The notes beneath the pieces are model-generated. The model had not been told where the DNA came from. It searched no databases and worked only from the letters and a program-made list of their open reading frames with translations. Below are positions 685-64,000 of a stretch of 64,000 bases of DNA, in pieces. The position numbers were made by a program, and so were the translations under genes. Source of the DNA: Candidatus Omnitrophota bacterium (lineage in GTDB: Bacteria > Omnitrophota > Gorgyraeia > Gygaellales > Profunditerraquicolaceae); the NCBI GenBank assembly GCA_043800555.1, contig JAZDMX010000003.1, forward strand, positions 240,033 to 304,032, written 5' to 3'. Every line of letters starts with the position of its first letter. Within the stretch, counting starts at the first letter, position 1.

Positions 685-738
685 ACTCTATTATAACAAA
701 AACTATCCGGTTGTAAAGTTATGAAAATGCGGATGTTT

Positions 739-837
739 CGAAAATGGGGACGCGAAAATGGGGACGTTTCTACTTTTCTAGAAGCTAAGGCCGGAAAAGT
801 AGAAACGTCCCCATTTTCGCCAACGTCCCCATTTTCG
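739..837. repeat. long palindromic intergenic repeat, copy A (left arm carries a 14-nt tandem duplication CGAAAATGGGGACG x2, mirrored on the right arm)
   Basis: Near-perfect inverted repeat: ...GGGGACGTTTCTACTTTTC, 15-nt loop TAGAAGCTAAGGCCG, then GAAAAGTAGAAACGTCCCC...; the same arms recur at 5726, 46516 and 63891. Confidence 0.85.
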
Positions 838-865
838 CCTCCGGTTTTCATTTCAAAGAGCGTGA

Positions 866-894
866 TTGACAGGCTTTGGAAATTGTGCTATATT
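866..894 (+). promoter_or_regulatory. sigma70-type promoter candidate for the PilZ operon (TTGACA-17nt-TATATT)
   Basis: TTGACA at 866-871, TATATT at 889-894, about 45 nt upstream of the first CDS. Confidence 0.5.
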
Positions 895-940: not shown

Positions 941-1288
941 TTGCCGGTGAATGCAGAAGCTAGAAGACGGGCTCAAAGGATAGGGCTGCGCGCCGAAATG
1001 CGCTACCACATAAGGGGTGGCGTATCGGAATTCGTTAACGTTGTCTCCAATAATATAAGTTCCACGGGGGTGAGTTTTAACGCAAGCAGCTATATCCCCC
1101 CGCAAACGCCGTTAATGCTGGAGATTGACGTTCTTTCCAGGGTCTTGCATCCAATCGGGAGAGTGGCCTGGTGCCAGGCTTTGCCGCACGCTTACCGTAA
1201 TAGCTTGGGGGTGGAATTCTTGGAGATGGATCCGTTGGAAAAGAATTACCTGGAAGATTATATCAACATGCAAAAAAGCAGGTTTTAG
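941..1288 (+). CDS. PilZ domain protein (c-di-GMP receptor)
   Basis: 115 aa; RRRAQR (RxxxR) and NISSTG (D/NxSxxG) PilZ signature motifs; TTG start. Confidence 0.75.
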   Translation: MPVNAEARRRAQRIGLRAEMRYHIRGGVSEFVNVVSNNISSTGVSFNASSYIPPQTPLMLEIDVLSRVLHPIGRVAWCQALPHAYRNSLGVEFLEMDPLEKNYLEDYINMQKSRF

Positions 1289-1308
1289 GGAAAGGAAAAA
1301 CAGAGAAG

Positions 1309-1500
1309 ATGGCAACCGAAGAGACTAAGGCGCCGGCTCAGGCCGAAGCTAAGCCGAAAGAAGAGAAGCAGACGAATTGTTTAAGCTGTAATAAACCGAT
1401 TAAGAAAATAAGGCGTTATTATCGCGACGGAAAATACTATTGCACTAAAAAATGCTGGTCTAATTTTATCCAGAAGGCTAAAGGCGAAGGTAACAAATGA
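1309..1500 (+). CDS. small zinc-ribbon protein (CxxC...CxxxC), Lys-rich
   Basis: 63 aa ORF; CLSCNK ... CTKKC; ATGA overlap with the next gene. Confidence 0.55.
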   Translation: MATEETKAPAQAEAKPKEEKQTNCLSCNKPIKKIRRYYRDGKYYCTKKCWSNFIQKAKGEGNK

Positions 1501-1877
1501 GCTCCGGAATCGAGAAAAGAAAGCACCCCAGGCTTAAGCAGAAGCTTCCTTTTAAGGTAGCGGCTAACGGGTATGATTTTTCAACGACTACCCAGAATAT
1601 CAGTTGTGTGGGCGCGTATTGCCGGATAAAGAAATACATACCTCCGTTTACTAGAGTAGCGATTAAATTGACCCTTCCGATTAAAAAAGCGGATAATAAG
1701 GCAAAACGCACGATTGACTGCGAGGGCGTAATCGTCAGGACCGAAGATAAGGATAACAGCGGTTTTAATATAGCTATCTTTTTTAACCGGATCAATGATT
1801 CCCAGCGTAAGATTATAAACGCGTACATAAACCAATTTTTGCCGCAGGGCGTATCCGCAGCAGCCTCTTTAAAGTAA
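1497..1877 (+). CDS. PilZ domain protein (c-di-GMP receptor)
   Basis: 126 aa; RKHPR and NISCVG PilZ motifs. Confidence 0.7.
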   Translation: MSSGIEKRKHPRLKQKLPFKVAANGYDFSTTTQNISCVGAYCRIKKYIPPFTRVAIKLTLPIKKADNKAKRTIDCEGVIVRTEDKDNSGFNIAIFFNRINDSQRKIINAYINQFLPQGVSAAASLK

Positions 1878-1880
1878 GAG

Positions 1881-2408
1881 ATGGGGAAAATAGCCCCCGA
1901 TAAACCCGTTAAGCTTATTATCGGTTTTATTTTTGGCGAAAAGGCATTCTTTGAGAAGGCAAAACTTGATCTAACCAGGCATTTCGGAAGGATTGACTTT
2001 GAAAGCGGGCCAATGCCTTTTACCGTGACCGGATATTACCGGGAAGAATTTGGCGAGGGCCTTTCAAGGGTATTCGTAAGTTTTTCCAAGTTCATCAAGC
2101 CGCAGCAAATTTCCGGCATAAAAATCCTCACTAATAAGATTGAAAAGAAGCTGACAAGAGAGTCAAAGCGCTTGGTTAATATTGATCCGGGTTACCTTGA
2201 TTTGGCTAAGCTTGTTTTGGCTTCGACCAAGGATTATGTCCACCGCATATATTTGAATAAAGGGATATTCGCCGAGATAACTTTGTTTTATCAGGATAAA
2301 AGTTTTCAGGATTGGAAGTGGACTTATCCTGATTTCCGGAGTAAAGAGTATATCGCGATGTTTAACCAGATCAGGAAATTATATGCAGAGCAGGCCCGGA
2401 AAGAATAA
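1881..2408 (+). CDS. DUF4416 family protein
   Basis: 175 aa; sequence pattern recalled for DUF4416; 26-nt overlap with the downstream radical SAM gene. Confidence 0.55.
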   Translation: MGKIAPDKPVKLIIGFIFGEKAFFEKAKLDLTRHFGRIDFESGPMPFTVTGYYREEFGEGLSRVFVSFSKFIKPQQISGIKILTNKIEKKLTRESKRLVNIDPGYLDLAKLVLASTKDYVHRIYLNKGIFAEITLFYQDKSFQDWKWTYPDFRSKEYIAMFNQIRKLYAEQARKE

Positions 2409-3369
2409 GCCGGTTTATTTAGAGTCATTTCAAAACGGCTTGCTTGATGAGGTGGCCGGAAGGCTTTTTGGTTCTTTAGAGTCTTGCGCGATCTGCCCCC
2501 GGAAATGCAAGGTAAACCGGCTAAACGGCGAAAAAGGTTTTTGCGGTTCAGGCTTAAAGCCTAAGGTGTACAGCTATATGGCGCATCACGGAGAGGAGCC
2601 GGCTATTTCAGGCTCGCGCGGTTCAGGCACAATATTTTTCTCGAATTGCAATATGGGTTGCGTATATTGCCAGAACTATGAATTCAGCCAAAATGGCTCC
2701 GGCAGGGAAGTCAGCTTTGAAGAGTTAGCCGGATTTATGCTGGAGTTGCAAGGCATGGGCTGCCACAATATTAATTTAGTTACGCCGACACATCTCCTGC
2801 CGCAAATCCTTAAGGCGTTAAGGATCGCTATTAGCGCCGGCCTGGATATCCCGTTAGTTTATAATACCGGCGGATACGAATCAGCCGGGATAATAAAATT
2901 ATTGAGGGGGATTATCGATATCTATTTACCGGATATGCGCTATGCCGGAGCAAGGCAGGCGATTGAGTTTTCCGGCGCGCCGGATTATCCGGAAAACAAC
3001 CGGGAATCCGTAAAAGAAATGTTTTGCCAGGCGGGGATAGCCAAAATGGATGGATCCGGAATAATTGAACGCGGCATAATCATAAGGCACCTTGTTTTGC
3101 CAGGCGGGGTTAGCGGGACAGAGGAAATCATGGAATTCATTTCTAAAGAGATTTCTTGCGAAACTTACGTAAGCTTGATGAGCCAGTATTTGCCGTATCA
3201 TAAAGCGGCGGAATTCAAAGGGATAAACCGCAGGTTAAAGTTTGGCGAATATAAAGAGGCGCAAAGGGCCATGGAAAAATACGGCTTGTATAACGGCTGG
3301 GTTCAGGAGTCATTCGGTTTGGAAAGGTTTGCGGGAGTAAACATAAAATCAGTGCTTAAAGATGAATAA
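2383..3369 (+). CDS. radical SAM protein, PflX-like (COG1313 family)
   Basis: 328 aa; N-terminal Cys cluster CAICPRKCKVNR...GFCG followed by the radical SAM motif CNMGCVYCQN. Confidence 0.8.
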   Translation: MQSRPGKNKPVYLESFQNGLLDEVAGRLFGSLESCAICPRKCKVNRLNGEKGFCGSGLKPKVYSYMAHHGEEPAISGSRGSGTIFFSNCNMGCVYCQNYEFSQNGSGREVSFEELAGFMLELQGMGCHNINLVTPTHLLPQILKALRIAISAGLDIPLVYNTGGYESAGIIKLLRGIIDIYLPDMRYAGARQAIEFSGAPDYPENNRESVKEMFCQAGIAKMDGSGIIERGIIIRHLVLPGGVSGTEEIMEFISKEISCETYVSLMSQYLPYHKAAEFKGINRRLKFGEYKEAQRAMEKYGLYNGWVQESFGLERFAGVNIKSVLKDE

Positions 3370-3883
3370 GGCGGATTTTCTTGGCAAGCTGTCAAAGGTA
3401 AAAGGCCTTTTATACCAGAAGCTTTTTAATATTAACGATACCGAGCAAAAAGTGGCCCTGGGTTTCGGCATAGGGGTATTTACCGGGATTTTACCGGGGG
3501 CCGGTCCTCTGGCAGCTTTGTTTTTGGCGGTACTTTTTAAGGTTAACCGTGCCAGCGCCCTTATCGGCAGCATCCTTACCAACACTTGGCTTAGCCTGGT
3601 AACTTTTCTCTTGGCAATCAAAATCGGTTCTGTTATATTTAGGGTTAGCTGGCAAGGCCTTAGAAGCGAATGGGCCTTTATCGCAAAGAACCCGGCTGGG
3701 AAGGATTTATTCACTATGCCTGTCTTGAAAGTTGCCCTCCCGGTGATAACCGGGTATTTTGTAATTTCTTTGTGTTTGGGCGGAATTTCTTATTTAATCG
3801 CGTTGATCGCGCTAAAAAACAGGCGCGCTGCCTGGCGCACGGGGATAACCGGTTCGCCGTATCCATGGCGCAAAAGGATTTAA
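3362..3883 (+). CDS. DUF2062 family membrane protein
   Basis: 173 aa; multiple TM helices; GILPGAGP motif typical of DUF2062. Confidence 0.6.
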   Translation: MNKADFLGKLSKVKGLLYQKLFNINDTEQKVALGFGIGVFTGILPGAGPLAALFLAVLFKVNRASALIGSILTNTWLSLVTFLLAIKIGSVIFRVSWQGLRSEWAFIAKNPAGKDLFTMPVLKVALPVITGYFVISLCLGGISYLIALIALKNRRAAWRTGITGSPYPWRKRI

Positions 3884-3887
3884 GATT

Positions 3888-4955
3888 ATGAAGAGTAAAG
3901 TGTATTTTACCCCCGTAGATTCTGCGGATAATATCCAGGATATAAACGTAAAGACCAAAAATCTGCTAAAGAAAAGCAGGCTTTTCGATTTTATCCAAAA
4001 GAAGGATAAAACGGCGCTAAAAATGCATTTTGGCGAAGAAGGAAATACCGGTTTTGTAAGGCCTGAACATGCGGGGGTTATTTGCCGTGAAATCCTTGAT
4101 AGGGGGGCGGAAGTTTTTCTATCGGACGCAAACACCCTTTACCGGGGAAGGCGCCTTGAGGCCGGAGAGCATTTGGCGCTTGCAAAGGAGCATGGTTTTG
4201 TCAAAGAAATTACCGGCGTAGATGTAATAATTCCTGATGACCATGATGCGCAAGCTAGCGTCGAAGTAGCGATTGGCCAGAAATTCATTAAAGCCGCTAA
4301 GGTTGCCCGTGTTTTTATCGAGGCGGATGCAATTGTCGCTTTAAGCCATTTTAAAGGGCATATATTGACCGGTTTCGGCGGCGCGGTTAAGAACATTGGA
4401 ATGGGTTGCGCTACCAGAGAAGGAAAGCTCGCCCAGCATTGCGATGTTTCGCCGGTTGTCTATTCGAATAAATGCATTGGTTGCGCAGAGTGCCGGAAGG
4501 TTTGCCCGGCAGGGGCAATCCGCATTGAAAATAAAAAGTCCGTAATAGATAAAGCAAAATGTATTGGTTGCGCAAGTTGTATGGCTGCTTGCTCTACTAT
4601 GGCGATGTTCATAGATTTTGCAGCAGGCGAAAAAACGCAAGATAAAATTGCGGAGTATTGTTGGGCTGTGCTTAGAGGCAAGAAGGCCAAGGCGGCCTTC
4701 ATTAACTTTGCGGTTAAAATCAATAAGGAATGCGACTGTTGGGGCGCAGAAAACCCCAGGATTGCCCCTGATGTCGGGATACTTGCTTCGCGGGATCCCG
4801 TAAGTATCGATAAAGCGAGTTTTGATTTGGTTAATAAGGCTTGCGAAAAGGATATTTTTAAAGCGACGCATCCGGATTCTAATGGGATGAAGCAGCTTGA
4901 ATATGCCCAGGAAATCGGTTTAGGCAGCCTTGATTACGATTTGGTTGCGGTATAA
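3888..4955 (+). CDS. DUF362 domain protein with two 4Fe-4S ferredoxin motifs
   Basis: 355 aa; CIGCAECRKVCP and CIGCASCMAAC (CxxCxxCxxxCP) motifs. Confidence 0.75.
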   Translation: MKSKVYFTPVDSADNIQDINVKTKNLLKKSRLFDFIQKKDKTALKMHFGEEGNTGFVRPEHAGVICREILDRGAEVFLSDANTLYRGRRLEAGEHLALAKEHGFVKEITGVDVIIPDDHDAQASVEVAIGQKFIKAAKVARVFIEADAIVALSHFKGHILTGFGGAVKNIGMGCATREGKLAQHCDVSPVVYSNKCIGCAECRKVCPAGAIRIENKKSVIDKAKCIGCASCMAACSTMAMFIDFAAGEKTQDKIAEYCWAVLRGKKAKAAFINFAVKINKECDCWGAENPRIAPDVGILASRDPVSIDKASFDLVNKACEKDIFKATHPDSNGMKQLEYAQEIGLGSLDYDLVAV

Positions 4956-4970
4956 GATTAAGGAGTAAGT

Positions 4971-5465
4971 ATGGCGAATTTCTCATTTGATATTGTTTCT
5001 GAAGTTGACCTGCAGGAAGTGGATAACGCGGTAAATCAAGCCTCTAAGGAACTGGCCCAGCGCTACGATTTTAAAGATAGCAAGGCTTCTATTGTTTTTG
5101 ACCGCAAGGAGGAGAAAATTACCCTGGTTGCGGACAATGATTTTAAGCTGCAGGCGCTTACTGATATGCTGCGAACGCGGCTAGCCAAAAGAGGGGTTTC
5201 CCTTAAATCCCTTAAATTTAACGAGGTTGAAAAGGCTTTCGAAGGCTATTTGCGGCAGTCCGTCCAAGTCTGTATGGGTATTGAAAAGGAAAAGGCAAAA
5301 GACCTGGTAGGGATTATAAAAGGCTTGGGTTTAAAAGCGCAAGCTCAAATAGAAGGTGAGAAGGTAAAGGTGAGCTCATCTAAAAAAGATGAACTTCAGG
5401 CGGTTATCGCGCATTTACGGGGTTTAGATTTTTCCATTCCCCTTAGTTTTGGTAATTACAGGTAA
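4971..5465 (+). CDS. yajQ: YajQ family nucleotide-binding protein (UPF0234; c-di-GMP binding reported in Xanthomonas)
   Basis: 164 aa; the N-terminus MANFSFDIVSEVDLQEVDNAVNQASKE matches the YajQ family. Confidence 0.85.
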   Translation: MANFSFDIVSEVDLQEVDNAVNQASKELAQRYDFKDSKASIVFDRKEEKITLVADNDFKLQALTDMLRTRLAKRGVSLKSLKFNEVEKAFEGYLRQSVQVCMGIEKEKAKDLVGIIKGLGLKAQAQIEGEKVKVSSSKKDELQAVIAHLRGLDFSIPLSFGNYR

Positions 5466-5471
5466 AATGAG

Positions 5472-5490
5472 AAAGGTGATTGTCACCTTT
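5472..5490. promoter_or_regulatory. perfect 8-3-8 palindrome AAAGGTGA-TTG-TCACCTTT (candidate operator)
   Basis: Lies between the yajQ stop and the RBS/start of the small CxxC protein. Confidence 0.3.
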
Positions 5491-5515
5491 CAGGCGTAGC
5501 AAAAAAGGAGGCAAT

Positions 5516-5680
5516 GTGGCGTATCAAAGTGGTGGTGGATTTGGTGGTGGGCCAAGGGAAATGCACAAAGCAACTTGTTCGGAATGTAAAAAGGAGTGCG
5601 AAGTCCCTTTTAAGCCCAGGGAAGACCGTCCGATATACTGCAAGGAATGTTATTCCAAGCGTAAGAACGAAGGACGTTAA
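5516..5680 (+). CDS. small Gly-rich zinc-ribbon protein (CxxC-x17-CxxC)
   Basis: RBS AAGGAGG at 5505-5511 then a GTG start; an in-frame TTG at 5480 is an alternative start. Confidence 0.5.
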   Translation: MAYQSGGGFGGGPREMHKATCSECKKECEVPFKPREDRPIYCKECYSKRKNEGR

Positions 5681-5725
5681 AGTATCAAAGTTAACTGTTG
5701 CCAGCCCCGCCTTCGGCGGGGCGGT

Positions 5726-5813
5726 AAAAACGGGGACGTTTCTAGCAAAAAACGGGGACGTTTCTGCTTTTCCGGCTTTAGGTCCTGGAAAAGTAGAAAC
5801 GTCCCCTTTTTTT
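5726..5813. repeat. palindromic intergenic repeat, copy B (partial left-arm duplication; ends in T7)
   Basis: AAAAACGGGGACGTTTCTAG + AAAAAACGGGGACGTTTCTGCTTTTCC, loop GGCTTTAGGTCCT, GGAAAAGTAGAAACGTCCCCTTTTTTT; preceded by a GC hairpin at 5704-5723. Confidence 0.85.
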
Positions 5814-5833
5814 GCGCAAGGCTTAATTTTAGA

Positions 5834-5861
5834 TTGACAAACTAGAAAATTGTGTTAGAAT
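5834..5861 (+). promoter_or_regulatory. sigmaA-type promoter of the hrcA operon (TTGACA-16nt-TAGAAT with TGn extension)
   Basis: TTGACA 5834-5839; TGTGTTAGAAT 5851-5861. Confidence 0.6.
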
Positions 5862-5867
5862 TTCACT

Positions 5868-5894
5868 TTAGCATTCTTAAGGTGAGAGTGCTAA
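5868..5894 (+). promoter_or_regulatory. CIRCE operator (HrcA binding site)
   Basis: TTAGCATTC-N9-GAGTGCTAA versus consensus TTAGCACTC-N9-GAGTGCTAA; located between the promoter and hrcA. Confidence 0.85.
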
Positions 5895-30504: not shown

Positions 30505-30917
30505 ATGAGGGAACTTGAGATTTATATTGATGGCGCATCCAAAGGTAACCCGGGCCAAGCGGAATCGGCGTGGTTATCCTGCGCCAAGGGGAAACTTTAA
30601 AGAATATCTCTGTTTACATAGGGCAGGCGACCAATAACATCGCCGAGTATACGGCTTTGATATACGCGCTTCAAGAGGCCTTGCTCTTAAAAGCGCAGAT
30701 ACTGAAAATCAGTACGGATAGCCAGCTTTTGGCTCGCCAGATGAACAAAGTTTACAAGGTTAAACATGAGAATATAATCGGCCTTTATAACCAGGCCTTA
30801 AATCTATTGGCCGGATTTAAAGAGGTTTCTATAAAAGATATCCCGCGGCAGGAGAATCAAGCCGCAGATCGGCTGGCAACTCAGGCGATTAAGAACGAAT
30901 TAAGAAAAGTTCTTTAA
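30505..30917 (+). pseudogene. rnhA: RNase HI family gene interrupted by an apparent 1-nt deletion in a C/G homopolymer near 30555 (pseudogene or sequencing error)
   Basis: Frame 1 reads MRELEIYIDGASKGNPG...stop at 30598; the -1 frame continues PSGIGVVILRQGETLK... to 30917. Restoring one C gives the canonical DGASxGNPGPxGxGVVI motif. Confidence 0.7.
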
Positions 30918-30963
30918 AATAAGGGCCAGGCCCCGTATATGGGCTGTCGGGGATTTTTTACAG

Positions 30964-31456
30964 GGCAGGCGGAATGTGGTCGCCCGTTATTGAATAAATG
31001 GCGGGAGGAAAGTCCGGGCTCCGGAGGACAGCGTAGTAGGCTAACCCCTACCCTTCGGTAAACTTACCGAAGAGGATTATCCCTTGGCGTTGGCTTGAGA
31101 AAGCCGCGGCAGGGGGTCATTGCCTGAAGACGTAAGCCTAAGGCGATGAGAGCCACAGAGACGAGGATCGTTGGTGCCGCTGATTTTGTTTTGCTGGTAG
31201 CGTTGGTTTACCGGCGCGATTCAGTTTTTAATCAGCGGGATCAGCGGGGAGTGAAACGAGGCAATCTCTGCGCGGAGCAAGGCGAATAGGAGATGATCTG
31301 TCATTAATTTGGCAGAACGCGTTTGTCCGGCGCGTTATTAAATCTCGGGTATTAAGCTGCTTGAGCTTTGACGGCAACGTTAAGGTCGAGAGGAATGATC
31401 ACTAATCGGCGCGAAGAAATCGCACCAAGACAGAACCCGGCTTATTTCGCCTGCCC
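30964..31456 (+). ncRNA. rnpB: RNase P RNA (rnpB), bacterial type A with extra insertions (about 490 nt)
   Basis: P4 GGAAAGTCCGGGCTCC at 31007-31022; GGAGCAAGGCGAATAGG; GCTTGAGC; 3' ACAGAACCCGGCTTA; P1 pairing GGGCAGGCG/CGCCTGCCC. Confidence 0.8.
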
Positions 31457-31559
31457 ATTTAAATGTTGGAATAATCAGAGGCCGGTAGCTTATGGCCTTA
31501 TAGCCAGTAGCCGGAATTATAACCGGCTACCGGCTAAGTATCGTTAAAGGAGGAAACAA

Positions 31560-46100: not shown

Positions 46101-46512
46101 CCAGCCCCGCGGGATTAATCAGCATTTTATTGGTTAAATTATAGCCGAGATTGCTGAAGCCGTTATGAAAAGGCTCATAAAAAACGGTTTTATTCCGGGA
46201 TGTTATCTTGATAAAAGTGCGGAATCCCTGGGTGCTTACAAGCTGCCAGGCCTTATTTGCCGGGAGGAATTCCAATATGGGATGGTCTTTATCTTTAACC
46301 CCGAAACTTGAAATGGCCTGGCCCCGGTTGACATAAAAAGTCCACATCGGGATTCCATATCTACCGGCTATCCCGGGGAAGAAATTGGAGAAGGGCTTGG
46401 AGTAGTTATAGTTTTCTATAACAAACTCTCCGGTTTCATTCAAATAATATTTGGGTACCTTATTTTGCGCCTTCATAACAGGGTATTCTACCTGATTTAA
46501 GCCTTTTGTCAA
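43168..46512 (-). CDS. large (1114 aa) glycoside hydrolase/phosphorylase candidate of the (alpha/alpha)6-barrel, GH94-like clan; the size is compatible with GH161/GH149-type beta-1,3-glucan phosphorylases
   Basis: Uninterrupted 1114-aa ORF. GNYRDLNQN resembles the GH94 G(F)RDSNQD catalytic region, and W..HWHYNLDLL resembles the downstream WNDCLN region. The family assignment is tentative. Confidence 0.55.
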   Translation of the reverse strand: MTKGLNQVEYPVMKAQNKVPKYYLNETGEFVIENYNYSKPFSNFFPGIAGRYGIPMWTFYVNRGQAISSFGVKDKDHPILEFLPANKAWQLVSTQGFRTFIKITSRNKTVFYEPFHNGFSNLGYNLTNKMLINPAGLALEETNLSLGLRVKVGYFNIPCDNYAGLARILRIENTGSKDKSIELIDGLPQIASFGTNNFFLKKMSRTIEAWIGVENIKNKAPFYRLKVDPVDRPEVIHINEGNFYLGFSLEGEKAKLAPPIVDPENVFGEIVDFSCPVNFIKNKRLKISAEVNSKTPCAFSFASLKLKKKEEKTFYSVIGYMRNLETLNESIPKIISSGYLKGKNEENTRLIRKLADDIHTASGSKKFDLYCRQTYLDNLMRGGYPFIFSGRQSKAPDSASLDAQESGSGKTTFHLYSRKHGDPERDYNRFQLAPTYFSQGNGNYRDLNQNRRNDIWFNPEIKEENLASLINLIQLDGFNPLIVKGSSFAIKDKETLKAKLEGICLKKNKERIISFLSKPFSPGEVIHFIEDNQIKLRIPYDELLDLIIAGSFKISEAEHGEGFWTDHWHYNLDLLSSYLEVYPEKLKQIVFCDRIFTFFDNSEVVKARNEKYLLYNGKPRQLHSVACDNAKKEMLHKRKAPAHLVRIMPGQTQIYQTSLINKLLCLFGNKFASLDPFGIGVEMEADKPNWFDSLNGLPALFGSSLCETFELKRLALFIKDAINQTGIEKLAVTEEILKLLTELNRLTLDYFDNKADDYAWWDESHSLKEDYRSLTKMGVGGIELDVPAPEITGIIDTALKKIDLGILKAKDTRENVYCGYFINEVTRYESADNHFIKPTEFKQSGLPLFLEAQVHALRLADSQSHARKIHEGTRKCELFDKKLKMYKVTAALAGMPEEIGRCRVFTPGWLENESIWIHMEYKYILELLKAGLYKEFYEDFKNCLIPFQEPQRYGRSILENSSFLVSSAFPDKKLHGNGFVARLSGSTAEFLEIWLKINAGMNPFFIKDGKLALKFEPKLAGWLFDKKGDYTFNFLSKIKVTYHNPRRKDTFESSPGPNSAGKQCRAQGKGPAKITQIILGGQEGPVEINSPVINSPYAEKVRARQFEKIDIYLE

Positions 46513-46515
46513 AGG

Positions 46516-46581
46516 AAAAAGGGGGACGTTTCTACTTTTCCCGCGGCTAAAGCTAGAAAAGTAGAAACGTCCCCATTTTTT
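46516..46581. repeat. palindromic intergenic repeat, copy C (simplest form: A5-stem-loop-stem-T6)
   Basis: AAAAAGGGGGACGTTTCTACTTTTCC, loop CGCGGCTAAAGCTA, GAAAAGTAGAAACGTCCCCATTTTTT. Confidence 0.85.
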
Positions 46582-46601
46582 CGTCTTTTATATGAATGTG
46601 T

Positions 46602-46633
46602 TTGACTTTTGGGCCGGGGAATGTTACTATATT
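46602..46633 (+). promoter_or_regulatory. promoter candidate for gatCAB (TTGACT ... TACTAT/TATATT)
   Basis: TTGACT 46602-46607; TACTAT 46625-46630 (17-nt spacer). Confidence 0.35.
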
Positions 46634-62520: not shown

Positions 62521-62538
62521 AAAGGGAAGGTGAAAAAA

Positions 62539-62573
62539 CAGGGGCGGAATAGAATTCCGCCCCTGTTTTTTTT
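62539..62573. terminator. bidirectional rho-independent terminator between convergent genes
   Basis: A6-CAGGGGCGGAAT-AGA-ATTCCGCCCCTG-T8: perfect 12-bp GC-rich stem flanked by A and T runs. Confidence 0.75.
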
Positions 62574-63843
62574 AACGCTTCCTGTTTTGGTTATTCGCCA
62601 GGGCGTAGAGGATTTGCGACGTGGAAATAAAAATAACCGCTTCTATTGCTATCGCCGCTGCCGCGGCCCCCAGGTATGAAAAATTATAAATAAAAACAAA
62701 TATCAGCGGGAGGCCGAAAATGGCGGCTAAAATATGTATTCTTGAGTATATGTCCGGCCTGCCGCAGACAAGCAAAAACTGGATTTTAAATGCGTTGGCG
62801 CTGATAAAAAATACGGATAAAAGCAGCATCCTTAAGCTTATGACGGCCTCGGGAAAGTCCGAGCCGCAGGCAAGCCTTACGATAAACGGCGAGGCAAAGA
62901 AGATTACCGGGACAGCCGCCAGGTAAATTAAGGTCGTAGAACGCTGGACCTTATGCATTAAATTTAAGGCCCTTCTTTTGCTCTTGGCAAAAATCCAGCT
63001 TATCCGGGGAAAAAGCGCTTGCGAAAGCGCGGTCAACGGGAACGTCTGGACGACTCCGGCGATCTTTTCAGCGATCGAATAAAATCCGGTGATTGTATTG
63101 TTGGTAAGCAGCCCGACGGCAAAAATACGCGTCGCGGTATAAGTATTTATCGCTACCACTGAAATAAATATTCCCCAGCCCGTCCTTAGTTCCTGTTTTA
63201 TGTCGTGGTAGCTTTGAAATACGAACTCCAGGTCAAACTCCTTAAAGGCTATGTAGAGGCCAAAAATTCCGGTGACTATGAAAAATAAGGAATTCAAAAG
63301 AGGGACCAGTATGTAATCATCCGGCGCCCTTACGAAGATAAAAACGGAAATCGCGTAAATTAGCCCGCCGATTATGTTGATAATCGTTATAAATTTCATT
63401 TTCTCGGTCCCCTGGAAAAGCCAGACAGGGAAAAGGGTGTTTCCTATTACCGCCCCGAAACTGAATAAATAAAGGAGCCAGTCGCTTTTGAATTTGGGAA
63501 CGACGTTTATCAATACGAGCAGGATTAAGTAGCTTAAGGCGGCAAGGATGAATTTTACGGTCATCACGGAGGAGAATATCGTGGAAGCCTGCTTAAGCTC
63601 TTTGCATAAAGAAATTTTCCGGGTTGCGGTCAAGCTAAAACCGTAGTCCGTAAGGATCATAAAATATTGGATAAAGGCTTGCGCAAAGGCGATTAAGCCG
63701 AATTTTTCCGGTCCGATGATCCTGATTAAGTATGGTAATACTATAAGGGGCAGAAGGTAATTGATGCACTGCAGGGTAGAAAGCGAGGCAAAGTTTTCTA
63801 ATACGAGCTTCTTATCTTTCTGGCTTATAACTTTATGCCGCAT
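62572..63843 (-). CDS. Wzx-like oligosaccharide/polysaccharide flippase (MOP superfamily)
   Basis: 423 aa; about 12 TM helices; N-terminal pattern typical of polysaccharide biosynthesis/export flippases. Confidence 0.75.
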   Translation of the reverse strand: MRHKVISQKDKKLVLENFASLSTLQCINYLLPLIVLPYLIRIIGPEKFGLIAFAQAFIQYFMILTDYGFSLTATRKISLCKELKQASTIFSSVMTVKFILAALSYLILLVLINVVPKFKSDWLLYLFSFGAVIGNTLFPVWLFQGTEKMKFITIINIIGGLIYAISVFIFVRAPDDYILVPLLNSLFFIVTGIFGLYIAFKEFDLEFVFQSYHDIKQELRTGWGIFISVVAINTYTATRIFAVGLLTNNTITGFYSIAEKIAGVVQTFPLTALSQALFPRISWIFAKSKRRALNLMHKVQRSTTLIYLAAVPVIFFASPFIVRLACGSDFPEAVISLRMLLLSVFFISANAFKIQFLLVCGRPDIYSRIHILAAIFGLPLIFVFIYNFSYLGAAAAAIAIEAVIFISTSQILYALANNQNRKR

Positions 63844-63890
63844 AGCCTTAATTTACTATCCTAAGGCCCAAAAGTCAATCTTAAAGTAGG

Positions 63891-64000
63891 AAAAAGGGGG
63901 ACGGAAAAAGGGGGACGTTTCTACTTTTCCCGCGCTAAAGCCAGAAAAGAAAAAGGGGGACGTTTCTACTTTTCCCGCGCTAAAGCCAGAAAAGTAGAAA
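63891..64000. repeat. palindromic repeat, copy D: tandemly expanded (left arm + loop repeated twice), truncated by the window end
   Basis: AAAAAGGGGGACG | GAAAAAGGGGGACGTTTCTACTTTTCC-CGCGCTAAAGCCA-GAAAAG | AAAAAGGGGGACGTTTCTACTTTTCC-CGCGCTAAAGCCA-GAAAAGTAGAAA... Confidence 0.85.

What the first reader, a model, noticed from the sequence alone, without database searches (positions are those of the whole stretch)
63891..64000. Copy D of the repeat is tandemly expanded and cut by the window edge; copies A and B also carry internal arm duplications
In copy D the unit (left arm + loop, 45 nt) occurs twice in tandem, preceded by an extra partial arm. In copy A a 14-nt sub-unit CGAAAATGGGGACG is duplicated on the left (739-752, 753-766) and mirrored on the right (806-819, 824-837), which keeps the palindrome intact. 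Copy B has a partial left-arm duplication. Symmetric duplication on both arms implies selection for, or a mechanism that preserves, the hairpin, such as slipped-strand or cruciform processing. This is atypical for simple terminators.
Basis: seen in the sequence. Interest (0 to 1): 0.55.

Follow-up and report, generated by a model that had tools for sequence, protein, structure and literature searches.

The report
Hairpin repeat family with duplicated arms
An uncultured Omnitrophota bacterium carries a previously undescribed small palindromic (hairpin-forming) DNA repeat that sits mostly between back-to-back promoters and keeps gaining extra partial arm copies; it looks like selfish repeat DNA of a known general kind, not a new machine.

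Summary
The window, from a Candidatus Omnitrophota MAG, holds four copies of one hairpin repeat: A 739-839, B 5726-5815, C 46514-46585, D 63890 to the window edge. The arms are GAAAA[A/T]GGGGACGTTTCTACTTTTC. The 14-15 nt loop keeps the motif GCTAAAGCC. Copy D has an exact 45-nt tandem duplication plus an extra 14-nt outer module. Copy A has a 14-nt duplication on the left and an 18-nt one on the right, so these are two separate events and not a mirror copy. Copy B has a diverged 22-nt left duplication.

Three of the four copies lie between divergent genes, wedged between strong sigma-70-like promoters. The fourth lies between a gene end and the hrcA promoter. The closest relative has empty sites at the positions of C and D, with the promoters intact. 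A more distant relative has its own homologous hairpin family at the same two sites, also with arm duplications. That genome also has short GGGGAC palindromes inserted in frame in miaB-like and gatA genes.

Best reading: a REP/MITE-like palindromic repeat shaped like a two-way terminator, tolerated where nothing transcribes through it. The arm duplications are best explained by replication slippage. The mobilising enzyme is unknown. Interest is moderate.

The parts
63890..64000 (.). Copy D, cut by the window edge. Extra outer module 63890-63903; 45-nt unit 1 at 63904-63948; identical unit 2 at 63949-63993; start of right arm 63989-64000.
   Evidence: family D1; TRF period 45, 2.0 copies, 100%; period 14, 2.1 copies, 100%
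739..839 (.). Copy A. Left modules 739-752 and 753-766; inner stem 767-778; loop 779-793; inner stem 794-805; right 18-nt tandem units 804-821 and 822-839.
5726..5815 (.). Copy B. The loop is in the opposite orientation to A, C and D. Partial left arm 5726-5744, then the full hairpin 5745-5815.
46514..46585 (.). Copy C. A simple hairpin with no duplication (25-nt arms, 15-nt loop).
   Evidence: (I15)
63850..63878 (-). Sigma-70-like promoter of the flippase gene (TTGACT-17-TAAATT), 12 nt from copy D. The ATG at 63843 lies 6 nt after the -10 box.
   Evidence: The promoter is conserved in relatives L017, L018 and L019.
46485..46512 (-). Promoter of the 1102-aa 'cellobiose phosphorylase'-annotated gene (TTGACA-16-TAGAAT). 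It abuts the left end of copy C.
46602..46630 (+). gatC promoter (TTGACT-17-TACTAT, with TG), 17 nt right of copy C.
690..717 (-). Promoter (TTTACA-16-TATAAT, with TG) of the minus-strand gene V1869_01555 (start 654), 22 nt left of copy A.
866..894 (+). Promoter (TTGACA-17-TATATT, with TG) of the PilZ gene, 27 nt right of copy A.
5834..5861 (+). hrcA operon promoter (TTGACA-16-TAGAAT, with TG), 19 nt right of copy B.

Best explanation
The four loci are copies of a previously undescribed, non-autonomous palindromic repeat element of the REP/MITE kind in an Omnitrophota genome. Each copy is an A-tract, a 19-27 bp perfect stem that begins with GGGGAC, a 14-15 nt loop with the conserved motif GCTAAAGCC, and a T-tract. 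This is the layout of a very strong two-way intrinsic terminator. Because a strong hairpin inside an operon would block downstream genes, copies survive only where nothing needs to transcribe through them. Such places are the space between the -35 boxes of back-to-back divergent promoters (A, C, D) and an operon boundary (B). In B the element probably does terminate the upstream transcript. The extra partial arms and the 45-nt tandem unit in D are by-products of replication slippage at a stable hairpin. Each has its own unit length, and some have short microhomology. Over longer times the two arms stay complementary, either by arm-to-arm template switching (quasipalindrome correction) or by selection.

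Shown: the repeat family, its anatomy, its contexts, its presence or absence among relatives, and arm covariation.

Inferred: mobility, terminator activity, the slippage origin of the duplications, and the reason for the site bias. The enzyme that spreads the element is unknown.
For: 1. Recent common ancestry, not just convergent hairpins. Arms are 87-100% identical and the loop motif GCTAAAGCC is shared by all four copies. B is flipped.
2. Presence/absence. The closest relative (77-85% aa identity; L017, L021, L022) has empty sites at the positions of both C and D. Its promoters are intact, and at C the -35 boxes are only about 22 nt apart.
3. Concerted evolution or turnover. GCA_030650425.1 has its own homologous family (GGGGACACTTTCC ... 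GGAAAGTGTCCCC, loop GGGCTCTAATGAAAGCC) at the same two spacers, plus one copy in an operon gap. These also have extra partial arms.
4. The same arms occur in unrelated contigs: L011 (38% GC, between a lexA-linked gene and dinB), L013 (65% GC) and L005 (labelled Desulfobacterales).
5. Selfish behaviour in the superfamily. In GCA_030650425.1, short A5-GGGGACAGTCCCC palindromes are inserted in frame three times in a MiaB-like gene and once in gatA.
6. Terminator-like shape. Folding gives -41 to -70 kcal/mol, z = -6 to -12 on both strands. An ordinary terminator in this genome has the same A-tract/GGGG/T-tract design (62526-62570).
7. Site bias. All 3 divergent junctions in the window are occupied, against 1 of about 12 other gaps of at least 90 nt. 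Hypergeometric P is about 0.009.
8. Independent events. The unit lengths are 14, 18, about 22, 14 and 45 nt, and about 18 nt in L011. GAAAA microhomology lies at the 45-nt junction.
9. Contigs from another assembly of the relative's species end inside the hairpin loops, as repeats tend to cause.
Against: No transposase, RAYT or other candidate mobilising gene is present among about 60 window proteins, and the rest of the genome could not be read. No target-site duplication could be identified at the filled versus empty sites. Only four copies were seen here, so the genome-wide copy number is unknown. Classical REPs sit mostly in unidirectional and convergent gaps (PMC3733652). Here 3 of 4 are in divergent gaps, so a positive function at divergent promoters is not excluded. 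Occupancy of the same two spacers in two genomes could reflect conserved function rather than shared permissive sites. The relative's family lacks the A/T tracts, so the terminator shape is not universal in the superfamily.
Confidence: 0.6

Rival explanations
1. The elements are host-selected two-way terminators or insulators, not mobile DNA. They would shield each strong promoter from transcription arriving from the neighbouring unit or from antisense starts. They would look alike because they are copied by gene conversion or share strict sequence needs.
For: The layout is A-tract, GC-rich stem base and T-tract, with very stable folds on both strands. The genome's ordinary terminator has the same design. 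B sits exactly where a terminator is expected, 46 nt after a stop codon and 19 nt before the hrcA -35 box. L013 and one L011 hairpin sit just after stop codons. The same two spacers are occupied in two genomes.
Against: Three of four copies sit between outward-firing promoters, where no annotated transcript arrives. The closest relative does without them at both sites. The non-structural loop is conserved among copies, which termination does not require. The relative's family has no T-tract and one of its copies sits inside an operon. Related palindromes lie inside coding genes.
Confidence: 0.2
2. The repeat is an array of operator half-sites (the 14-nt module GAAAANGGGGACG in direct and inverted copies). 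It would be bound by a regulator or nucleoid protein that co-controls divergent promoters. Module number would be under selection, which would explain the duplications.
For: Every copy is within 1-30 nt of a -35 box. The duplicated part is always the outer module containing GGGGACG. GGGGAC is the one invariant block across the families.
Against: The orthologous promoters in the closest relative lack the site altogether. The flanking genes are functionally unrelated: PilZ, hrcA, gatC and a flippase. Module spacings of 14, 18, 22 and 45 nt have no helical phasing. Perfect 19-27 bp arms with a free loop are unlike known operators. Copies also occur after stop codons and in an operon gap.
Confidence: 0.08
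3. The palindromes work as DNA cruciforms. Negative supercoiling builds up between divergent promoters. A long palindrome would extrude and absorb it, uncoupling or tuning the two promoters.
For: All 3 divergent junctions in the window and 2 of 3 in the relative's loci carry a long palindrome. Complementarity is kept through sequence change.
Against: This is purely circumstantial. A 13-15 nt loop disfavours extrusion. Copies also sit in unidirectional gaps (B, L019 17187-17240, L013). The closest relative lacks them.
Confidence: 0.05
4. The duplications are assembly artefacts of a short-read metagenome assembly at a palindromic repeat.
For: Palindromic repeats do upset assemblers. Logan contigs of the relative end inside the hairpin loops. 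The 45-nt units are 100% identical.
Against: Each duplication creates a junction sequence (for example CCAGAAAAGAAAAAGGGGG) that a simple hairpin does not contain. Such junction k-mers have to be in the reads (inference). All the duplications are shorter than a read. Comparable arm duplications occur in independent contigs L011 and L023, and the right-arm duplication of L023 is also in the Logan contig L024.
Confidence: 0.03

Closest known systems
REP / REPIN elements mobilised by RAYT transposases (Bertels & Rainey, PMC3116915; PMC3337134)
   Same: Both are short extragenic palindromic repeats that are non-coding and dispersed. The sequence is genome-specific and relatives carry different variants. 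Both form hairpins and are sometimes grouped or duplicated.
   Different: A REPIN is two short REP hairpins in inverted orientation. Here the whole element is a single long perfect stem. No RAYT gene was seen in the window. No unpaired GTAG tag is present. The copies sit mainly in divergent gaps rather than unidirectional or convergent ones.
GTAG- and CGTC-tagged REP superfamilies (Di Nocera et al. 2013, PMC3733652)
   Same: The tetranucleotides GTAG and CGTC both occur in the arm (GAAAAGTAGAAACGTCCCC). The paper also reports intragenic, in-frame copies, and they are especially numerous in the PVC bacterium Opitutus terrae.
   Different: In those families the tag is an unpaired end next to a 5-13 bp stem with a 4-5 nt loop. 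Here both motifs are base-paired inside a stem of at least 19 bp with a 14-15 nt loop.
Rickettsia palindromic elements (RPE) and other in-frame palindromic insertions
   Same: The related short GGGGAC palindromes in GCA_030650425.1 insert in frame in conserved genes and add 17-20 residues.
   Different: This was seen in the relative, not in the window. There is no sequence similarity, and the window's own family was seen only between genes.
MITEs such as Neisseria Correia elements
   Same: Both are small non-autonomous elements with long terminal inverted repeats. Both lie close to promoters and can act as terminators or change expression.
   Different: No target-site duplication and no parent insertion sequence were found. 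The flanking -35 and -10 boxes pre-exist in the empty sites, so the element does not supply them.
Bidirectional intrinsic (Rho-independent) terminators
   Same: The layout is the same: A-tract, GC-rich stem, T-tract. The genome's own terminator at 62526-62570 shares the design.
   Different: The stem and loop are much longer here. The sequence, loop included, is conserved between loci. Most copies sit where nothing needs terminating.
Quasipalindrome template-switch mutagenesis (PMC7202029)
   Same: It offers a known route by which a change in one arm of an inverted repeat is copied to the other arm, keeping a hairpin perfect.
   Different: It is a mutational process, not an element family. The 14-nt versus 18-nt duplications in copy A do not look like its product.

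Membership tests
REPIN/RAYT system | Two REP units, each a short imperfect palindrome, in inverted orientation around a spacer | tested here: not met
   Each arm is not itself a palindrome. The element folds as one continuous stem of 19-41 bp.
REPIN/RAYT system | A cognate single-copy RAYT (IS200/IS605-like Y1 transposase) gene in the genome, usually flanked by REPs | tested here: inconclusive
   None of about 60 window proteins has a transposase domain. Only 64 kb of the genome could be read.
REPIN/RAYT system | High copy number, with genome-specific sequence and different variants in related genomes | tested here: inconclusive
   There are four copies in 64 kb. A relative carries a different homologous variant. 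The whole-genome count is unknown.
GTAG / CGTC tagged REPs (PMC3733652) | Unpaired GTAG or CGTC motif at one end of a 5-13 bp stem with a 4-5 nt loop | tested here: not met
   GTAG and CGTC lie inside the paired stem. The stem is at least 19 bp and the loop is 14-15 nt.
MITE | Terminal inverted repeats | tested here: met
   The arms are 25-27 nt and 93-100% complementary (pairs I5, I6, I15).
MITE | Target-site duplication flanking the element | tested here: inconclusive
   Filled and empty sites were compared at C and at D. No direct repeat was recognisable, and the spacers are too diverged (about 25%) to be sure.
MITE | Insertion polymorphism between related genomes | tested here: met
   The sites are empty in L017, L021 and L022, and L018 is empty at D. 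They are filled in the window and, with a variant, in L019 and L023.
MITE | A related autonomous element that encodes the transposase | not testable with these tools
   The source genome is not retrievable.
Intrinsic terminator | GC-rich stem-loop directly followed by a U-tract in a transcribed 3' region | tested here: inconclusive
   The shape is present on both strands. Only B lies downstream of a gene on the same strand. A, C and D lie upstream of both neighbours. No transcript data are available.
Integron attC site | R''/L''-L'/R' structure with RYYYAAC and GTTRRRY core sites, at the 3' ends of gene cassettes next to an integrase | tested here: not met
   The core motifs are absent from the arms (read directly). 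The neighbours are housekeeping genes, not cassettes.
Any Rfam RNA family | Score at or above the family's gathering threshold | tested here: not met
   The repeats give no hit at gathering thresholds. Only generic long-hairpin (miRNA precursor) matches appear, far below threshold.

The most novel reading that the evidence does not exclude
Omnitrophota may carry a phylum-wide superfamily of GGGGAC-core palindromic elements with three unusual properties. First, they lengthen their own arms by repeated modular duplication that later becomes mirrored on the other arm. In one alignment, the 6-nt block GTTTCT/AGAAAC present on both arms of the window's family is absent from the relative's family. 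Second, they are preferentially installed or kept exactly between the -35 boxes of back-to-back divergent promoters, where they act on promoter coupling or insulation. Third, they can also enter essential genes in frame. They would be driven by a so far unidentified hairpin-recognising enzyme.
Probability: 0.2. Interest if true: 0.65.

Novelty: new member of a known kind. Interest (0 to 1): 0.4.

Why it matters
Small palindromic repeats are well studied in Proteobacteria but are essentially uncharted in uncultured phyla such as Omnitrophota. This family shows the usual hallmarks: genome-specific sequence, insertion polymorphism and hairpin conservation. It adds two features worth following up. 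One is a strong bias for the narrow space between divergent promoters, which is the opposite of classical REPs. The other is frequent independent duplication of the outer arm module, which gives a view of how palindromes grow. The elements also matter practically. They break short-read assemblies at the hairpin loops. They mark a synteny breakpoint at copy B. In a relative they add peptide insertions to conserved enzymes, which affects annotation and protein alignment.

Tried and rejected
1. Extending past 64000. Exact-protein look-ups for the source contig failed three times, although the proteins exist in NCBI on a 304-kb contig.
2. GTDB genome scan with an 18-mer. It gave nine single hits, about chance level. 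Only L005 is a true hairpin copy.
3. Metagenome scan with the 19-mer. It gave seven loci. Only L011 and L013 are real copies. L010, L012, L014 and L016 are one unrelated sequence, and L015 is a lone match.
4. IMG/VR scans and phage and plasmid BLAST found nothing.
5. Rfam gave no family.
6. Literature searches for the motif and for Omnitrophota palindromes found nothing relevant.
7. Pfam on about 60 window proteins, looking for a transposase or RAYT, found none.
8. attC, CRISPR-like array, uptake-sequence pair, small RNA gene and nested insertion of one element in another were considered for copy A. All were rejected on anatomy: the core motifs are absent, the 'spacers' are identical, arms never occur singly, and the sequence after the inner element is not the remainder of an outer one.
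9. Target-site duplications were sought at the filled versus empty sites and were not resolvable.
10. I did not build a covariance model. A search allowing 4 mismatches had already shown no further copies in the held sequences.

Full report
**What is in the sequence.** Copy D begins at 63890 with GAAAAAGGGGGACG. The same 14-mer follows immediately and opens a 45-nt unit made of the left arm GAAAAAGGGGGACGTTTCTACTTTTC, the loop CCGCGCTAAAGCCA and GAAAA. This unit occurs twice without a mismatch, at 63904-63948 and 63949-63993. The right arm then starts (GAAAAGTAGAAA, 63989-64000) and is cut by the window edge.

The same hairpin occurs at 739-839 (A), 5726-5815 (B) and 46514-46585 (C). The 19-mer GGGGACGTTTCTACTTTTC, with up to 3 mismatches, is found 8 times, against 0.02 in shuffles. 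A search allowing 4 mismatches finds no further copy in the window.

Copy A carries CGAAAATGGGGACG twice on the left (a 14-nt tandem repeat, 100% identical). On the right it carries the 18-nt unit AACGTCCCCATTTTCGCC twice (804-839, 100% identical). Copy B has a diverged partial left arm about 22 nt upstream of the complete one. Copy C is a plain hairpin. The observation therefore stands, with one correction: the two duplications in A have different units and boundaries.

**Anatomy.** Each copy is an A-tract, a stem that begins GGGGACG, a 14-15 nt loop and a T-tract. The folds are extremely stable on both strands: -41 kcal/mol for C and -70 kcal/mol for A, with z-scores from -6 to -12. The visible part of D does not fold well because its right arms lie beyond the edge. 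The loop is also conserved (GCTAAAGCC or GCTAAGGCC). In B it is reverse-complemented, so B is flipped relative to the others. Shared loop sequence points to common descent of the copies and not to independent evolution of hairpins.

**Organism and context.** The flippase next to D, the 1102-aa protein next to C and HrcA next to B are each 100% identical to proteins of one Candidatus Omnitrophota MAG contig of 304,210 bp. Pfam annotation of about 60 proteins shows ordinary housekeeping genes, nearly all on the + strand, and no transposase.

Only three genes are on the - strand:
- V1869_01555, start 654, annotated at NCBI.
- The 1102-aa gene, start 46476.
- The flippase, start 63843.

Each of the three divergent junctions holds a copy (A, C, D). 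In D the far side lies beyond the window. It is inferred to be tilS from synteny in three relatives. The fourth copy, B, lies 46 nt after the stop of a 66-aa zinc-ribbon gene and 19 nt before the -35 box of the hrcA-grpE-dnaK-dnaJ promoter.

Taking the 15 gaps of at least 90 nt (corrected with the Pfam results), the hypergeometric chance that 4 elements cover all 3 divergent gaps is 12/1365, about 0.009. The sample is small.

Strong sigma-70-like promoters flank the copies at 1-30 nt:
- 717-690 on the - strand and 866-894 on the + strand around A.
- 5834-5861 on the + strand after B.
- 46512-46485 on the - strand and 46602-46630 on the + strand around C.
- 63878-63850 on the - strand beside D.

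**Relatives.** The closest relative found is represented by ENA sample ERZ27247363 and by GCA_028717055.1, at 85% and 77% protein identity. At the position of D it has the same promoter and no hairpin (L017). At the position of C it has a 112-nt spacer in which the two -35 boxes are about 22 nt apart, with no hairpin (L021 and L022). L018 is also empty at D.

A more distant relative, GCA_030650425.1 (81% and 72% identity), has at both positions a hairpin of its own family: CTAGGGGACACTTTCC, loop, GGAAAGTGTCCCCTAG. A third copy lies in an operon gap (L019 and L023). The copy at the gatC spacer has an extra left-arm module and an extra right-arm piece (GTGTCCCCTA twice). The copy at the flippase spacer has extra partial arms next to it.

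The two families align. GGGGAC and part of the inner stem are shared, and the loops share GCT..AAAGCC. In one alignment the window's family has an extra 6-nt block on both arms. With a 19-pair structure over nine sequences, 92% of cells pair, against 77% in shuffles and 42-54% when the partner is slid. Ten pairs changed on both sides. This shows that the palindrome is maintained. It does not say whether that happens at the DNA or the RNA level.

Copies with the window's own arms also turned up in three other contigs:
- A 2.6-kb metagenome contig, between a lexA-linked gene and a dinB-like start, with an 18-nt left-arm duplication (L011).
- A 65% GC contig, directly after a stop codon (L013).
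- A MAG labelled Desulfobacterales (L005).

**Interpretation.** Several lines point to a REP/MITE-like repeat that spreads or turns over within and between genomes:
- Near-identical copies, loop included, within one genome.
- A different but homologous version in another genome.
- Empty sites in the nearest relative.
- Stray copies in unrelated contigs.

The superfamily also behaves selfishly. In GCA_030650425.1 short palindromes (AAAAATGGGGACAGTCCCCAAAAGGCGGGGACAGTCCCCATTTTT) are inserted in frame three times in a MiaB-like radical-SAM gene, adding 17, 20 and 17 residues relative to the ortholog. One more lies in gatA. One of these has an extra AAAAAAGGGGAC module.

I explain the site bias by tolerance. 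The element has the shape of a two-way terminator. The genome's own terminator at the convergent junction 62526-62570 has the same A-tract/GGGG/T-tract design. A copy would therefore be harmful inside an operon and harmless between outward-firing promoters or at an operon end. This explanation is an inference.

It does not fit published REP behaviour, which is mainly unidirectional and convergent (PMC3733652). So a positive role at divergent promoters, such as insulation, supercoil absorption or protein binding, stays open as a minority view.

**The duplications.** Their units are 14, 18, about 22, 14 and 45 nt in the window and about 18 nt in L011. Each has its own boundaries. The 45-nt event lies between two GAAAA runs (read directly). 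B's duplication has already diverged. This pattern fits separate slippage events at a replication-blocking hairpin. Roughly 5 of the 11 arms I could inspect carry one, so an element hit on both arms (A) needs no special symmetry mechanism. A's two events are in any case not mirror images.

The longer-term mirrored differences between families do call for arm-to-arm correction or selection. Quasipalindrome template switching is a known process that could provide the correction (PMC7202029), but I did not test it.

An assembly artefact is unlikely, for three reasons:
- The junction sequences cannot arise from a simple hairpin.
- The events are shorter than a read.
- The L023 right-arm duplication recurs in the Logan contig L024.

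The Logan contigs L020 and L024 both end inside the hairpin loops. This shows that these elements do disturb assembly.

**Comparison with known families.** The element is not a member of the GTAG/CGTC-tagged REPs. Those motifs are paired inside the stem here, and the stem and loop are far longer. It is not a REPIN in the strict sense, because the arms are not themselves hairpins and no RAYT was seen. It is not an attC site and matches no Rfam family. It meets the MITE criteria of terminal inverted repeats and insertion polymorphism. No target-site duplication or parent element could be shown. I therefore file it as a new family of a known general kind, with an unusual location bias and unusually frequent arm duplication.

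**Limits.**
- Only 64 kb of the source genome was readable.
- The right half of D is unseen.
- There are no reads and no transcript data.
- The statistics rest on four copies here and three in one relative.

Noticed in passing
L032 4303-4347, 4485-4541, 4821-4873; L023 9290-9334 (GCA_030650425.1): Short palindromes (AAAAATGGGGACAGTCCCCAAAAGGCGGGGACAGTCCCCATTTTT) are inserted in frame three times in a MiaB-like radical-SAM gene, adding 17, 20 and 17 aa relative to the L025 ortholog. A similar palindrome lies within the annotated gatA gene. This resembles Rickettsia palindromic elements.
   Followed up: partly
window 5868-5894: A near-consensus CIRCE operator (TTAGCATTC-N9-GAGTGCTAA) lies between the hrcA promoter (5834-5861) and the hrcA start (5914). 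This is the classic HrcA autoregulated heat-shock operon hrcA-grpE-dnaK-dnaJ.
   Followed up: partly
window 46476-46512 (-) and 63843-63878 (-); L017 9966-10003, L018, L019, L021, L023: For the flippase and the 1102-aa gene the -10 box ends only 6-8 nt before the ATG and no Shine-Dalgarno sequence is present. The same holds in all relatives examined. This suggests conserved leaderless mRNAs.
   Followed up: partly
window 941-5680, bounded by copies A and B: There is a synteny break exactly at copy B. Relatives have miaB-like, TPR, miaA and hflX upstream of hrcA (L025, L032). The window instead has a block of PilZ, DUF4416, radical SAM, DUF2062, DUF362, DUF520 and a zinc ribbon, flanked by A and B with their loops in opposite orientation. 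This may be a rearrangement between repeat copies.
   Followed up: no
L020 1-30 and L024 1-35: Two contigs from the Logan assembly of run SRR13727527 (the relative's species) start inside the loops of the hairpin elements. The palindromic repeats appear to break short-read assemblies.
   Followed up: partly
window 62526-62570: A textbook two-way intrinsic terminator (A6-CAGGGGCGGAAT-AGA-ATTCCGCCCCTG-T8) lies in the 51-nt gap between convergent genes. The consensus terminator scan did not list it.
   Followed up: no
window 5701-5725: A GC-rich hairpin (GCCCCGCC-TTCG-GGCGGGGC) with no T-tract sits directly before copy B. Together with B's T-tract it may form a composite terminator for the zinc-ribbon gene.
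   Followed up: no
L011 830-1910: The metagenome copy of the repeat sits in a likely SOS unit: lexA (1301-1906, -), a 102-aa gene, the hairpin, then a dinB-like start (MILHIDMDAFFASIEQ) only 2-3 nt after the element. A second small GGGGACGGTTCTCT hairpin lies at 1264-1295.
   Followed up: no
L025 269-2750, L027 and L032 1592-4139: Relatives carry a small mobile-looking module (Phage_rep_O, HTH_17/MerR, large serine recombinase) directly upstream of the MiaB-like gene. It is absent from the window.
   Followed up: no
L032 940-990: Another hairpin has reversed polarity (GCCCCATTC ... GAATGGGGC). Its loop, CGGCTTAGCCG, resembles the loop motif of the window's family. It lies in the third divergent spacer of the relative and may be a further diverged family member.
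   Followed up: no
window 30570-30917 and 30963-31460: A small RNase H / RVT_3-like protein gene lies directly upstream of the RNase P RNA gene. The RNase P RNA match spans 498 nt, against a model of 367.
   Followed up: no
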